This document shows, in pieces, positions 9,772-58,719 of a DNA stretch of 64,000 bases. Source of the DNA: an uncultured Poribacteria bacterium (lineage in GTDB: Bacteria; Poribacteria; WGA-4E; WGA-3G). The stretch lies in the NCBI GenBank assembly GCA_958296135.2, contig CATQHZ020000001.1, forward strand, positions 768,001-832,000, in the 5' to 3' direction. Positions within the stretch are counted from its first letter, which is position 1, and each line of letters opens with the position of its first letter. The position numbers and the translations under genes were made by a program. Below the pieces are notes generated by a model. It made no database searches. It worked only from the letters and a program-made list of their open reading frames with translations, and was not told the DNA's origin.

Positions 9772-9797
9772 TAGGCGCGCTTTGAAAGCGCGCCTAC
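9772..9797. repeat. Perfect palindromic REP family B (GTAGGCGCGCTTTGAAAGCGCGCCTAC); further copies near 6051, 18502, 20486, 28600, 39422, 45218, 51743, 59883, 60580, 62246
   Basis: Same palindrome seen at gene ends across the window. Confidence 0.85.
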
Positions 9798-56478: not shown

Positions 56479-57036
56479 TTAATGTTCGTCGGTGTTTTCT
56501 GCTTCGGAAGCGATGGAAGGCACCGAAGAATCCTCTTCGTTTGTGGCAGCCATTGACACGGAGCGGAGGACTGAGATGAGGAACCAGCCGAATAATCCGA
56601 CAGCTGCGCCTGCGCAGGCCGCAATTGCCGCGCCTTTCGGTGTGGCAATCTTGTCCAACGTACCCGGGTCAAGTTCACAAGAGACATCCTTCAGATTTCT
56701 GAAGGCGACGATGCGTTTCTCGCCGTGTTGGACGTATTCTACGGTTGGCGCGCGGGGGCCATCTAGTTCAATATCGGCGTGTCCTGCGGGACTGCTCACT
56801 GCGACGCGGTTTGTGCCGGGTTCGCCTACCCAGCGTGCTTTCACGCCGTTGATTCCATCGGTGTCGCGAATCGGTTCCACCCGCGTTCGGGAGAGCGCAC
56901 TGCTCAGCAGCTCGAGCGCGATGTCCTTCGATTTTGCTAAGGCGTTTCCTAAGTTTATTGCATTCACGGTTGTTCTGTTCCCCGAAGTCTCAACATATCG
57001 AGATAAGTCGAGACTTCTAAGTTCCTGCTTCATCAC
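56479..57036 (-). CDS. Orphan hypothetical protein with C-terminal TM helix and acidic tail
   Basis: SD GGAGG before GTG/ATG; 185 aa; ends 9 nt before the next gene. Confidence 0.7.
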   Translation of the reverse strand: MMKQELRSLDLSRYVETSGNRTTVNAINLGNALAKSKDIALELLSSALSRTRVEPIRDTDGINGVKARWVGEPGTNRVAVSSPAGHADIELDGPRAPTVEYVQHGEKRIVAFRNLKDVSCELDPGTLDKIATPKGAAIAACAGAAVGLFGWFLISVLRSVSMAATNEEDSSVPSIASEAENTDEH

Positions 57037-57055
57037 TTACCGCCTCCGAAACGCA

Positions 57056-57441
57056 CCTGCCGATTTTGACGTAGGCATGCTTGGTCGGCGATCGTGCAGT
57101 GCTGTTTGCGAAAGCCAAACAGCACATCTTCGGCGTTCGGTAGTCCCGAACGCCTACACGATCGCCGGCGCGAAAGCCAAGCATGCCGAAGATGTCTTAT
57201 TCTGTAAACAGAATAAGACTGCGTCAAAATCGGAGAAATGCGAATACTACGAGGTCTTACGCGAGCGCCACAGGCGTTTTACGTCTCGGTCAAACCAGCC
57301 GCGACGTTGGTTTTGTAGTCTTAGATACTGCAGCGAGACAATCCTTTCTCCGATTTTTGCGCAGTGCTGTTTGCGAACAGGTCACAGACTGACCTATTCG
57401 GTAGTTTGTTATTACAAACTACCTACGCAAAAATCGGCAGG
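57056..57441. ncRNA. Unidentified highly structured element (candidate ncRNA or cis-regulatory leader) with three repeated junction motifs
   Basis: More than ten 8-21 bp stems found by manual pairing; see findings. Confidence 0.65.
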
Positions 57442-57627
57442 GAATCGCGTCGGACTTACAGCTCCCTCCACCGTCAGTGATGCCTGCGCACCGCCGACTA
57501 TTAATCCGCTTCACACGGGGGGTTAGGACATTACACATGCCTCTTGGTATCGTGCAGCAGGAAACGTTCTTCACGCTCCGTTCGCCAGCCTCTCATCTGA
57601 GAGATAAAACTACTTAAATCAGATATG

Positions 57628-57690
57628 TTACGAATTAACGAGACTTACCGAGAATTCAATCGATTTACTCGGATTTTCGGGCTCTAGCAC
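57628..57690 (-). CDS. Possible 20 aa leader peptide MLEPENPSKSIEFSVSLVNS
   Basis: Strong SD AAGGAGG just before GTG, at the 5' end of the long leader. Confidence 0.3.
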   Translation of the reverse strand: MLEPENPSKSIEFSVSLVNS

Positions 57691-58062
57691 TCTCCTCCTT
57701 TGTGGATAGAGGCTTGAAAAATAGTATCGCATGTTTCGCAAAGAAAATCAAGCGAAAATTCAGCACGATTCAATTTGCTGGCGCGAGGGTGAAAGGGGAC
57801 GGTTTTGAGGGATTCGCGAGGGACGGGGCCGTTTTTGCACTATTCCGTGCGTTCTGCTATAATCGTTTATAGCAATATCTGAATTCGGTCTGCACGCAAC
57901 CCGACCAGAAAGGATGGGGCAAAAGATGGAAAACGAAATCGTTCTGCAAAGAGTTAAAAAACTTGACAAAATTAAGGTTTTATGTCAAAATAGTTAAAAC
58001 CTAGTAAGAAAGCAAGGAAAAGTTAGTGAGCTATTAGCCACGATGAGGAAGTAGCGTTTCAC

Positions 58063-58719
58063 ATGCAGACCGATTCATTGACACCTTATGAACGAGAGAT
58101 TCCACTGTTCCCGCTGCAGGTAGTCCTATTCCCCGGCGGCGTGTTACCGCTTCATATTTTTGAACCGCGGTATCGCGAGATGGTGAAGTACTGTCTGGAC
58201 ACCGATTCCGAATTCGGAGTTGTTTTGATAAACGAGGGTACAGAGGCGGGTGAGTCCGCAAATCCCTATCGCGTTGGCACCGCCACGCGGATACTGGATG
58301 TCCAGCATTTACCCGATGGCCGTATGAACATCGTGACGGCGGGGGAGTATCGCTTTGAAATCCTTGACATTCAGGATGAACTCCCCTACCTCGTCGCGCA
58401 GGTTCGGCTGTTAGACGATGACTTCGCGTTGGAAGTTGAACCGGAGATAGAATCCCTCGCGGAAGAAAGTGCGGCACTCTATCAAACGTACGAGCTCTTA
58501 TCCAGCCGCCTGATTTTCGCATGGCAGCCGACAGAGGAAAACCCAGAACATCCACTGGAACTCGCCTATCAAATTGGTACGCGGCTCCGCATCTCGCTTG
58601 AGGAGAGACAATTGTTGTTGGAGACTGTCCGATTAGAGCAGCTTCTCACGCGCGAAATCGCTATTCTCAAAGACGAGAACCAGCGGATCTCCTTCCGGTT
58701 AATGGCGCGCAACAATTGA
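58063..58719 (+). CDS. Lon substrate-binding (LON N) domain protein
   Basis: IPLFPL.VVLFPG..LPLHIFEPRY, VGT...LPDGR. Confidence 0.9.
   Translation: MQTDSLTPYEREIPLFPLQVVLFPGGVLPLHIFEPRYREMVKYCLDTDSEFGVVLINEGTEAGESANPYRVGTATRILDVQHLPDGRMNIVTAGEYRFEILDIQDELPYLVAQVRLLDDDFALEVEPEIESLAEESAALYQTYELLSSRLIFAWQPTEENPEHPLELAYQIGTRLRISLEERQLLLETVRLEQLLTREIAILKDENQRISFRLMARNN

What the first reader, a model, noticed from the sequence alone, without database searches (positions are those of the whole stretch)
57056..57441. Nested, two-strand repeats of a covarying three-way-junction motif: candidate new structured RNA (or ssDNA) class
Seen in sequence: module X (plus strand, 57060-57233) is P1 ccgattttgacGTAG/CTGCgtcaaaatcgg, P2 gcatgcttgg/ccaagcatgc, junction CGAAGAT, P3 gtcttattctg/cagaataagac. 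Module Y (minus strand, 57086-57167) sits inside the P2 loop of X: P1 cggcgatcgtGTAG/CTGCacgatcgccg, P2 gcgttcgg/ccgaacgc, junction CGAAGAT, P3 gtgctgtttg/caaacagcac. Module Z (minus strand, 57350-57437) has the same GTAG-G[P2]C-CGAA...ACTGC frame with a variant P3. The junction nucleotides (GTAGG, CCGAAGATGT, ACTGC) are conserved while the X and Y stems are unrelated in sequence yet complementary, which amounts to internal covariation. A further small junction lies at 57283-57339. I could not match the motif from memory to hammerhead, glycine, glnA, cobalamin, tmRNA or RNase P consensus. Inference: an undescribed aptamer, ribozyme or protein-binding module. Its presence on both strands also allows a folded-ssDNA substrate, or an element replicating through both polarities.
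Basis: partly seen in the sequence, partly recalled or inferred. Interest (0 to 1): 0.9.

Follow-up and report, generated by a model that had tools for sequence, protein, structure and literature searches.

The report
Mobile three-armed REP-like DNA repeat
The three-way-junction modules are real, but they are copies of a small mobile palindromic DNA repeat, a relative of bacterial REP/BIME elements, nested inside a decayed IS200/IS605-type insertion sequence, and not a new class of functional RNA.

Summary
X (57058-57234, +), Y (about 57083-57170, -, in X's P2 loop) and Z (57349-57439, -) fold as described, far better than shuffles on both strands, and match no Rfam family.

They are not a conserved RNA class. 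About 42 copies lie in this genome and one in a congener. None was found in 59 further family/order genomes, 150 phylum genomes, or pattern scans of 185,579 species genomes and 241 million metagenome records.

Paralogous empty sites show that X, Y, Z and other copies are precise insertions without target duplication. Type-A ends are always TGCCGATTTT...AAAATCGGA.

Each unit is a GTAG-tagged hairpin, a 6-nt spacer (GAAGAT), an inverted hairpin of the same types, and a 10-11 bp inverted repeat. That is the layout of a REP/iREP dimer inside a palindrome.

Compensation is Watson-Crick only, apart from one invariant T-G. The genome holds more than 1000 GTAG-type REP motif matches and two REP-associated tyrosine transposase genes.

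The host sequence (56975-57705) is a seven-copy, tnpB-less derivative of a TnpB insertion sequence.

Best reading: a non-autonomous REP/BIME-like element, moved as folded single-stranded DNA by a Y1 HUH transposase acting in trans. The enzyme link is inferred, not shown.

The parts
57058..57234 (+). Module X: type-A three-armed repeat (ends TGCCGATTTT...AAAATCGGA), interrupted in its P2 loop by Y. Inserted into the host element between ...GCACC and GAAATG... without target duplication.
   Evidence: Paralogue C1:2122190-2122663 is contiguous across this site. Three paralogues carry X without Y, plus a fourth, more diverged one (GGAG in place of GTAG). The covariance model hits X's 3' part.
57083..57170 (-). 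Module Y: type-B copy (P1 CGGCGATCGT/ACGATCGCCG) inserted in the loop of X's P2 hairpin. The boundary is ambiguous by 1 nt.
   Evidence: Present in the window and in copy C1:2279xxx, absent from the four other X-bearing paralogues. CM hit of 86 bits at C1:825082-825171.
57349..57439 (-). Module Z: type-A copy, decayed. The 5' half of P3 and part of the junction are replaced by a 19-nt mini-hairpin.
   Evidence: Absent from paralogues C1:2122xxx and C1:3032xxx. Contigs join 57348 to 57440 in 4 runs of one sample. CM hit of 60 bits. The replacement is shared only with paralogue C1:3579xxx.
56975..57705 (-). Host 'base element': a seven-copy, about 475-nt (without inserts), tnpB-less derivative of an IS200/IS605-family TnpB insertion sequence. 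The right end (RE) lies at 56975 and the left end at about 57700-57705.
   Evidence: Seven copies have unrelated flanks. The 3' 165 nt resemble the end of full IS copies that encode TnpB. Contig loose ends lie at 56974/5 and 57700/2.
57235..57348 (-). 57235-57299 is homologous to the sequence directly after the tnpB stop codon in the full IS, which is the position of the guide-RNA (omega/reRNA) scaffold in such elements.
   Evidence: 83-87% identity to IS positions 1420/1425-1489 across the base copies; 84.6% for the window's own copy. The alignment is visible by eye. The guide-RNA role is inferred from recalled knowledge of TnpB elements and was not tested.
56479..56967 (-). Downstream gene of unknown family. 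Its likely real start is GTG at 56967, 9 nt after the host element's right end. The listed ORF start at 57036 lies inside the element.
   Evidence: The start is inferred from where the paralogue homology ends.

Best explanation
X, Y and Z are copies of a small (about 90 nt) non-autonomous mobile DNA element of the REP/BIME/REPIN kind. Each unit has four parts. The first is a GTAG-tagged hairpin (P2, a REP). The second is an invariant 6-nt spacer, GAAGAT. The third is a second hairpin (P3) that is an inverted version of the same hairpin types (an iREP, tagged GCAG on the other strand). The fourth is a 10-11 bp flanking inverted repeat (P1), which turns the dimer into a three-way junction when the strand folds on itself. 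The unit moves as a whole. It inserts precisely, without target-site duplication, often into hairpin loops or stems of its own relatives and into the ends of IS200/IS605-type (TnpB) insertion sequences. That produces the nested, two-strand picture in the window. I infer, but have not shown, that the active form is the folded top strand of single-stranded DNA, cut and rejoined in trans by a Y1 HUH transposase. The candidates are the genome's two REP-associated tyrosine transposases (RAYTs), or an IS200-type TnpA that is not in the assembly. In this model GTAG acts as the guide-like motif 5' of the hairpin, and P1 brings the two ends together. Shown here: repeat family, mobility, architecture and narrow distribution. 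Inferred: the ssDNA form and the enzyme.
For: (1) Dispersed family. There are 30 exact matches to the junction pattern and 0 to the reversed control. There are 58 CM matches, which reduce to 42 loci after removing opposite-strand echoes. (2) Mobility, with four sets of paralogous empty sites. X, Y and Z are present or absent among the 7 base-element copies. A nested pair is present in 4 of 8 IS_A copies. One copy is present in 3 IS_B copies and absent from 7 full and 11 short ones by the BLAST table; the junction letters were read for 9 of those 18. In the three type-A cases the ends are identical (TGCCGATTTT...AAAATCGGA), the flanks are C|...|GA, and there is no duplication. (3) Architecture. 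The GTAG tag, GAAGAT spacer and CTGC are invariant in 20 of 20 copies. P3 loops are reverse complements of P2 loops: CGAAAGC/GCTTTCG, TAATAA/TTATTA and GTTTAC/GTAAAC. (4) DNA-type palindromy. There are 107 double compensatory cells and 0 one-sided (G-U) changes in 515 cells. In MFE folds there are 678 Watson-Crick and 27 G-U pairs, and 20 of the 27 are the one invariant T-G. Both strands fold about equally. (5) Narrow distribution. The family was found in the own genome and 1 congener of 61 genomes, and in 0 of 150 other phylum genomes. The 2 genome and 6 metagenome pattern hits are not family members: one scored a weak 22.6 bits and the other seven had no match to the model. (6) A REP-rich host. 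Motif matches on both strands for four GTAG-type REP motifs number 320, 432, 284 and 548. There are two RAYT genes: NF047646 at 125 bits (over its cut-off of 80) and at 57 bits (under it). Each is flanked by REP arrays. (7) Precedent in print. GTAG REP dimers embedded in longer palindromes are described in PMC3733652 (sections 7 and 14 read). GTAG as a guide-like motif, and CT as the cleavage dinucleotide of E. coli TnpA-REP, are described in PMC8266576 (introduction and section 28 read). The left boundary of X, Z and the IS_B copy falls inside a C|T dinucleotide.
Against: Neither RAYT gene is flanked by three-armed copies; the best CM score there is 11 bits. A 56%-identical orthologue of RAYT-1 exists in congener G002, which has no copies. 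None was found in G001, which has one copy but is only 86% complete. Orientation does not switch with GC-skew replichores: 6+/11- on one side and 8+/15- on the other. The skew is irregular, so this test is weak. Terminal inverted repeats are not typical of IS200/IS605 or REP substrates. The right end on the top strand is not a CT. The target motif is consistent only for the three type-A sites; other subfamilies landed in different sequences. The invariant T-G pair and the asymmetric spacer show strand specificity, but they cannot tell ssDNA from RNA. Solo copies tend to be co-oriented with neighbouring genes (8 of 9 between same-direction crude ORFs), which an RNA role would also explain. Copy number (about 42) is low for a REP family. 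No transposition was observed directly.
Confidence: 0.7

Rival explanations
1. A new class of functional structured RNA (aptamer, ribozyme or protein-binding module) that acts in the transcripts in which it lies.
For: There is no Rfam match. Covariation is strong and the junction is invariant. One invariant U-G pair makes the top strand about 3 kcal/mol more stable as RNA. Of solo copies between same-direction ORFs, 8 of 9 are co-oriented with them (crude ORF map).
Against: Copies are present or absent among 90-99% identical paralogous repeats. They are nested inside each other in both orientations. There is no conserved gene association. The family is confined to one genus. Compensation is Watson-Crick only, with 0 one-sided changes in 515 cells. 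Both strands fold equally.
Confidence: 0.1
2. A classical double-stranded MITE, whose terminal inverted repeats (P1) are recognised by a DDE transposase encoded elsewhere.
For: It has 10-11 bp terminal inverted repeats, small size, intergenic sites and a lineage-restricted burst.
Against: None of the four resolved insertion sets has a target-site duplication. The termini differ between subfamilies while the internal junction is invariant, the reverse of what transposase-bound TIRs show. No longer element sharing these ends turned up among the pattern, BLAST or model hits in the genome; no dedicated search for far-apart half-sites was run.
Confidence: 0.08
3. A hitch-hiker, or hyperparasite, of the TnpB insertion sequences. 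On this view the element is a minimal IS200/IS605-type substrate (left-end hairpin plus right-end hairpin). It uses the same TnpA as these insertion sequences and preferentially lands in their single-stranded ends.
For: By my tally, 26 of 42 loci lie inside four IS200/IS605-type families (base, IS_A, IS_B, IS_C; TnpB confirmed). That is roughly 10 of about 26 separate insertion events.
Against: No IS200-type TnpA is in the assembly; there are only two RAYT-like genes. The ends of the element and of the insertion sequences are not alike. The enrichment count is by hand, and the events are not all independent.
Confidence: 0.12

Closest known systems
GTAG-tagged REP dimers embedded in longer palindromes (for example Anabaena variabilis GTAG-15 and Halothiobacillus CGTC-1; Di Nocera et al. 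2013, PMC3733652, sections 7 and 14 read)
   Same: A 5' GTAG tag on a hairpin. Two hairpins in opposite orientation with a short conserved spacer. The whole dimer is flanked by complementary arms, so the unit can fold into a larger structure. Families are species-restricted.
   Different: Here the arms (P1) demonstrably move with the dimer, as the empty sites lack them. The second tag is GCAG, not GTAG. The spacer is an invariant GAAGAT. Copies insert into each other and into insertion-sequence ends.
REP/BIME and REPtrons of E. coli, Stenotrophomonas and Marinomonas (PMC8266576, abstract, introduction and section 28 read)
   Same: A palindrome preceded by GTAG. REP plus inverted REP separated by a linker. 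A single-copy RAYT in the genome, flanked by REPs. Cleavage at a CT dinucleotide beside the REP, matched here by the C|T left boundary.
   Different: The three-armed copies do not flank either RAYT. There are about 42 copies rather than hundreds. They carry terminal inverted repeats. No tandem BIME arrays were seen.
REPINs of Pseudomonas fluorescens (PMC3116915 and PMC3337134; only the search listing and the start of each abstract were seen)
   Same: Two inverted REPs with a spacer, acting as one non-autonomous mobile unit thought to use a RAYT.
   Different: REPINs fold as one long hairpin by pairing REP with REP. Here each REP folds on itself and a third helix closes a three-way junction.
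IS200/IS605-derived miniature elements (PATEs) and IS608-type ends (recalled, not read here)
   Same: Hairpin-bearing ends, strand-specific motifs 5' of the hairpins, insertion without duplication, and non-autonomy.
   Different: IS200/IS605 ends are not inverted repeats of each other, and they insert 3' of a fixed 4-5 nt target. Here only type-A sites share C|GA.
Integron attC sites (mentioned in PMC5737381, passages read)
   Same: A recombination substrate that acts as folded single-stranded DNA. It shows little sequence conservation but conserved structure, and is easily mistaken for an RNA motif.
   Different: There are no cassettes, integrase or R/L box pattern, and the elements are not arrayed between ORFs.

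Membership tests
REP (repetitive extragenic palindrome), GTAG superfamily | A 20-50 nt palindrome preceded by a conserved GTAG tetranucleotide | tested here: met
   GTAGG plus hairpin plus CC is present in 20 of 20 aligned copies. The same GTAGG...CC frame occurs in the genome's ordinary REPs.
REP (repetitive extragenic palindrome), GTAG superfamily | High copy number, mainly extragenic | tested here: inconclusive
   There are 42 loci, low for a REP family. Of the 21 loci checked, 12 overlap no crude ORF of 150 aa or more, and most overlaps at the other 9 look like overprinted or extended frames. 26 of the 42 loci lie inside insertion sequences.
REPtron / RAYT-associated REP | A RAYT gene in the genome | tested here: met
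   Two PF01797 matches. NF047646 scores 125 bits (cut-off 80) for one and 57 bits for the other.
REPtron / RAYT-associated REP | The cognate RAYT gene is flanked by copies of the repeat | tested here: not met
   Filter-off CM search of both RAYT loci: best score 11 bits, E 0.08. Their flanks carry other REP types.
REPtron / RAYT-associated REP | The RAYT binds and cleaves the folded single strand | not testable with these tools
   Needs purified protein and oligonucleotides.
BIME/REPIN (REP dimer) | Two REPs in inverted orientation separated by a short spacer, mobile as one unit | tested here: met
   P3 loops are reverse complements of P2 loops. The whole unit is absent from empty sites.
BIME/REPIN (REP dimer) | The dimer folds as one long hairpin (REPIN) | tested here: not met
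   All folds give a three-way junction in which each hairpin pairs with itself.
IS200/IS605-type miniature element | Insertion without target duplication, 3' of a fixed short target | tested here: inconclusive
   There is no duplication in any of the four sets. The three type-A sites share C|GA, and the other subfamilies differ.
IS200/IS605-type miniature element | Orientation bias with the replication direction | tested here: not met
   6+/11- against 8+/15- on the two sides of the skew extremes. The skew is irregular and copies are not independent.
Any Rfam RNA family | Score at or above the gathering threshold | tested here: not met
   0 matches in the window. Only chance-level matches at E up to 10 in 56900-58100.
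TIR-MITE (DDE transposase) | Target-site duplication flanking the terminal inverted repeats | tested here: not met
   Empty and filled sites differ by exactly the element.

The most novel reading that the evidence does not exclude
The three-armed element is a hyperparasite of RNA-guided TnpB insertion sequences. On this reading it is a minimal folded-ssDNA transposon that lands preferentially in their single-stranded ends and guide-RNA region and rides with them. Its strand-specific invariant core (GTAG, GAAGAT, one T-G pair) would be a recognition module for a Y1 enzyme that has not been characterised. In the window, X would then interrupt the guide-RNA scaffold of the host element.
Probability: 0.15. 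Interest if true: 0.6.

Novelty: new variant of a known kind. Interest (0 to 1): 0.3.

Why it matters
This case shows how a covarying, Rfam-negative three-way junction can be a mobile DNA palindrome and not an RNA. The tests that told them apart were paralogous empty sites, Watson-Crick-only compensation and lineage restriction.

For repeat biology, it adds a REP-dimer variant whose flanking arms travel with it. This variant has unusually clean evidence of mobility: four sets of filled and empty sites. It also has a marked tendency to insert into its own hairpins and into IS200/IS605 (TnpB) ends.

If a Y1 transposase is shown to act on it, the invariant GTAG/GAAGAT core would be a compact, well-defined substrate for studying how these enzymes read folded single-stranded DNA.

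For annotation, the ORF start at 57036 is probably an artefact of the inserted element.

Tried and rejected
Rfam. The gathering scan of the whole window gave 0 matches. The permissive scan of 56900-58100 gave only three chance-level hits: Oskar_OES, snoZ5 and mir-242_2.

'Poribacteria-1'. I recalled a published motif of this name. A full-text search found 0 papers. The main text of PMC5737381 has 0 occurrences of 'Poribacteria'. Its supplements are closed, so I could not check whether this motif is listed there. No Rfam family matched in any case.

RAYT association. CM search of both RAYT loci found no copies. There was no presence/absence correlation with RAYT-1 across three congeners.

Replication-strand bias. 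No switch of orientation across the GC-skew extremes. The skew is irregular, so this is weak.

Orthologous empty site in congener G002 for the solo copy at C1:16693. The flanking genes align at 84-89%, but the intergenic region is too diverged to place a junction.

Wider homologues. The genome-contig scan gave 2 hits and the metagenome scan gave 6. One genome hit scored a weak 22.6 bits and the other seven had no match at E up to 1; none looks like a family member.

Expression. No RNA holder was listed for the stretch. The four holders are contigs of one sample, and laying them only re-found the paralogue variants and the element boundaries. This is no evidence on expression either way.

IS608-style guide/cleavage-site pairing. 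I compared GTAG and AGAT with the flanks by eye. There was no consistent fit, so I dropped it.

The organism's identity was not pursued.

Full report
**Observation.**
- Module X (plus strand) has P1 at 57060-57070/57223-57233, then GTAG, a P2 hairpin, the junction CGAAGAT, a P3 hairpin and CTGC.
- Module Y lies on the minus strand inside the loop of X's P2 and has the same frame with unrelated stems.
- Module Z lies on the minus strand at about 57350-57437.
- As RNA, the X+Y region folds to -109.8 kcal/mol on the plus strand and -107.3 on the minus strand (z -14.3 and -13.2). Z gives z -9.2 and -7.8. No shuffle in 200 did as well.
- With DNA parameters both strands again fold about equally.
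- Rfam has nothing. There were 0 matches at gathering thresholds in the whole window and only chance-level hits at E up to 10 around the site.

**A dispersed repeat family.**
- The junction pattern GTAGG...CCGAAGATG...ACTGC occurs 30 times in the window's own genome (5.19 Mb, 4 contigs). The reversed control pattern occurs 0 times.
- A slightly looser expression found 31 matches. Thirty have a complementary P1; most P1 are 9-11 bp, and they are shorter where another copy interrupts them. One match was a chance hit.
- I aligned 20 simple copies and built covariance model R1. R1 finds 58 matches, which reduce to 42 loci once opposite-strand echoes are removed.
- In the 20 copies, GTAGG, CCGAAGATG and CTGC are invariant.
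- 98.4% of 515 cells pair, and 19 of 26 pairs carry changes on both sides. No shuffle in 500 reaches the observed covariation score, and slid controls collapse to 30-47% paired.
- So the structure and its covariation are real.

**The copies are insertions.** The stretch 56975-57705 is itself a seven-copy repeat with unrelated flanks, which I call the 'base element'. Its paralogues differ by whole modules.
- Copy C1:2122190-2122663 has neither X/Y nor Z. It reads straight through ...GCACC|GAAATG... and ...CCTTTC|GGGAAT....
- A more diverged copy, C1:3032xxx, has X (with GGAG in place of GTAG) without Y, and no Z. Three further copies have X without Y.
- The window and one other copy have X with Y.
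- Two copies carry further members of the family inside Z's stem.
- From these comparisons X is 57058-57234, Y is about 57083/4-57169/70 and Z is 57349-57439. Each has no target-site duplication.
- Contigs of four runs (one sample) show the same 57348-to-57440 joint. They also show loose ends at the base-element boundaries. This re-finds the paralogues and is not independent support.

Two more filled/empty sets lie outside the window.
- A nested pair sits in the left end of 4 of 8 copies of a 1.6-kb insertion sequence, IS_A.
- One copy sits in 3 copies of a second insertion sequence, IS_B. By the BLAST table it is missing from 7 full-length and 11 short copies. I read the junction letters for 9 of those 18.
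- In all three type-A cases the inserted piece is TGCCGATTTT...AAAATCGGA, with flank C on the left and GA on the right.

**What the host is.**
- IS_A encodes a 359-aa protein that matches RNA-guided endonuclease TnpB: NF040570 at 252 bits, plus PF01385 and PF07282.
- The ORFs of IS_B and of a third family, IS_C, are TnpB as well.
- The last roughly 165 nt of the base element resemble the stretch from the tnpB stop codon to the right end of IS_A, at up to 87% identity, lower at the terminus. The left ends are also similar.
- The base element is therefore a tnpB-less derivative of an IS200/IS605-family element.
From recalled knowledge of TnpB systems, that is where the guide-RNA scaffold lies. 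This is an inference and I did not test it.

**Architecture points to REP dimers.**
- P2 is a hairpin preceded by GTAG and closed by GG/CC. The same frame is seen in the genome's ordinary REPs, for example GTAGGCGCGC...GCGCGCCTAC.
- Motif matches on both strands for four GTAG-type REP motifs number 320, 432, 284 and 548.
- P3 hairpins are inverted versions of the P2 types. Their loops are reverse complements: CGAAAGC/GCTTTCG, TAATAA/TTATTA and GTTTAC/GTAAAC. On the other strand P3 is preceded by GCAG.
- The unit is thus a REP plus an inverted REP, tail to tail, with a 6-nt spacer inside a 10-11 bp inverted repeat.
- Di Nocera et al. (PMC3733652; abstract and sections 7 and 14 read) describe GTAG REPs, their head-to-head and tail-to-tail dimers with conserved spacers, and dimers embedded in longer palindromes in several species.
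- Corneloup et al. (PMC8266576; abstract, introduction and section 28 read) state that REPs are palindromes preceded most often by GTAG, and that BIMEs combine a REP and an inverted REP. They also state that E. coli TnpA-REP cleaves single-stranded REPs at a CT dinucleotide 5' or 3' of the structure, and that GTAG sits where IS200/IS605 guide sequences sit.
- The left boundary of the three type-A insertions falls within C|T.

**DNA or RNA.**
- Compensation is of the DNA kind. Among 515 cells there are 107 with both sides changed and none with one side changed.
- In minimum-energy folds of the 20 copies there are 678 Watson-Crick and 27 G-U pairs. Twenty of the 27 are one invariant T-G next to the junction. 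The other 7 lie in three copies with a disrupted P2.
- The family is very narrowly distributed. R1 finds it in this genome and once in one congener (86% complete), with a compensated P1 variant.
- It was not found in the other congener or in 58 further genomes of the family and order. It was not found in 150 other genomes sampled across the phylum. Both searches used Infernal's stricter filters and scored only part of the candidates.
- I also ran a stricter exact pattern, which by my reading fits 24 of the 30 family members. It found 2 stretches in one genome each of 185,579 species and 6 in 241 million metagenome records. One scored a weak 22.6 bits against R1 and the other seven had no match at E up to 1.
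- Nesting in both orientations, presence/absence among 90-99% identical paralogues, and the lack of any shared gene neighbourhood do not fit a riboswitch, a ribozyme or a trans-acting RNA.

**The enzyme is not established.**
- The genome has two Y1 transposase genes. One passes the NCBIfam RAYT model (125 bits, cut-off 80). The other scores 57 bits.
- Both are flanked by arrays of their own GTAG REPs, but not by three-armed copies; the best R1 score there is 11 bits.
- The congener without copies has a 56% identical orthologue of the first RAYT. None was found in the incomplete congener that has a copy.
- Orientation does not follow the GC-skew halves: 6+/11- and 8+/15-. The skew is irregular and many copies are passengers of larger repeats.
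- Solo copies between same-direction crude ORFs are co-oriented with them in 8 of 9 cases. That fits either an RNA-level constraint or a strand bias of insertion.
- By my hand tally, 26 of 42 loci lie inside the four IS200/IS605-type families, which is roughly 10 of about 26 separate insertion events. This suggests a link with the single-stranded transposition pathway. It is the basis of the most novel reading that remains open.
- No IS200-type TnpA is in the assembly, although the TnpB families look recently active.

**Verdict.**
Z is a decayed copy and not a covarying variant. The 'small junction' belongs to the host element.
- The RNA-class interpretation is not supported.
- I file the element as a new variant of the REP/BIME/REPIN kind. 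It meets the GTAG-hairpin and inverted-dimer criteria. It fails the 'flanks its RAYT' and 'single long hairpin' criteria.
- I am about 0.7 confident that it is a mobile REP-dimer-like DNA element. I am roughly 0.45 confident that a RAYT or related Y1 enzyme moves it as folded single-stranded DNA.

Noticed in passing
window 56975 (right end) and 57700-57705 (left end); also C1:4547369-4548955 and 7 other IS_A copies: The TnpB insertion sequence IS_A and its tnpB-less 'base' derivative appear to insert between a Shine-Dalgarno-like motif and the start codon of unrelated genes. The left end is preceded by or begins with (A)AGGAGG or GAGG in every full copy. A start codon follows the right end by 7-13 nt in 6 of 7 base copies (32 nt in the seventh) and by 5-10 nt in 6 of 8 IS_A copies. 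The target (TAM) of this family may be the ribosome-binding-site core.
   Followed up: partly
window 56479-57036 (-): The listed 185-aa ORF takes its first 20 or so codons from the inserted element. The likely true start is GTG at 56967. No Pfam family matches the protein.
   Followed up: partly
whole genome; in the window for example near 9774, 18505, 39425, 45220, 51746 and 62249: The genome is dense in ordinary GTAG-tagged REPs of several families; motif matches on both strands number 320, 432, 284 and 548 for four motifs. It has two REPtrons, at C1:3734400-3734870 and C1:4791065-4791610, each flanked by its own REP arrays.
   Followed up: partly
C1:239590-239799, 375519-375719, 1498905-1499116, 1602032-1602238 and 7 more: About 11 short (about 210 bp) derivatives of IS_B keep the first 57 nt and the next 150 nt or so of the element. 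They form another family of miniature IS200/IS605-type elements.
   Followed up: no
whole genome: Three or more TnpB families have many 87-96% identical copies, but no IS200-type TnpA gene was found, only two RAYT-like genes. What mobilises these insertion sequences is open.
   Followed up: no
contig C2 (143,886 bp): GC content is 36.8%, against 54.4% for the main contig. It may be a plasmid, a phage or a binning contaminant. No three-armed copies were found on it.
   Followed up: no
contig C1: Cumulative GC skew is weak and irregular: maximum near 1.58 Mb, minimum near 4.91 Mb, with a bump at 2.75-3.25 Mb. This suggests rearrangement or misassembly.
   Followed up: no
window 57377-57396; C1:3579335: A 19-20 nt mini-hairpin (stem CAGGTCA/TGACCT) replaces part of Z. 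It occurs only here and in one paralogue. Its origin is unknown.
   Followed up: partly
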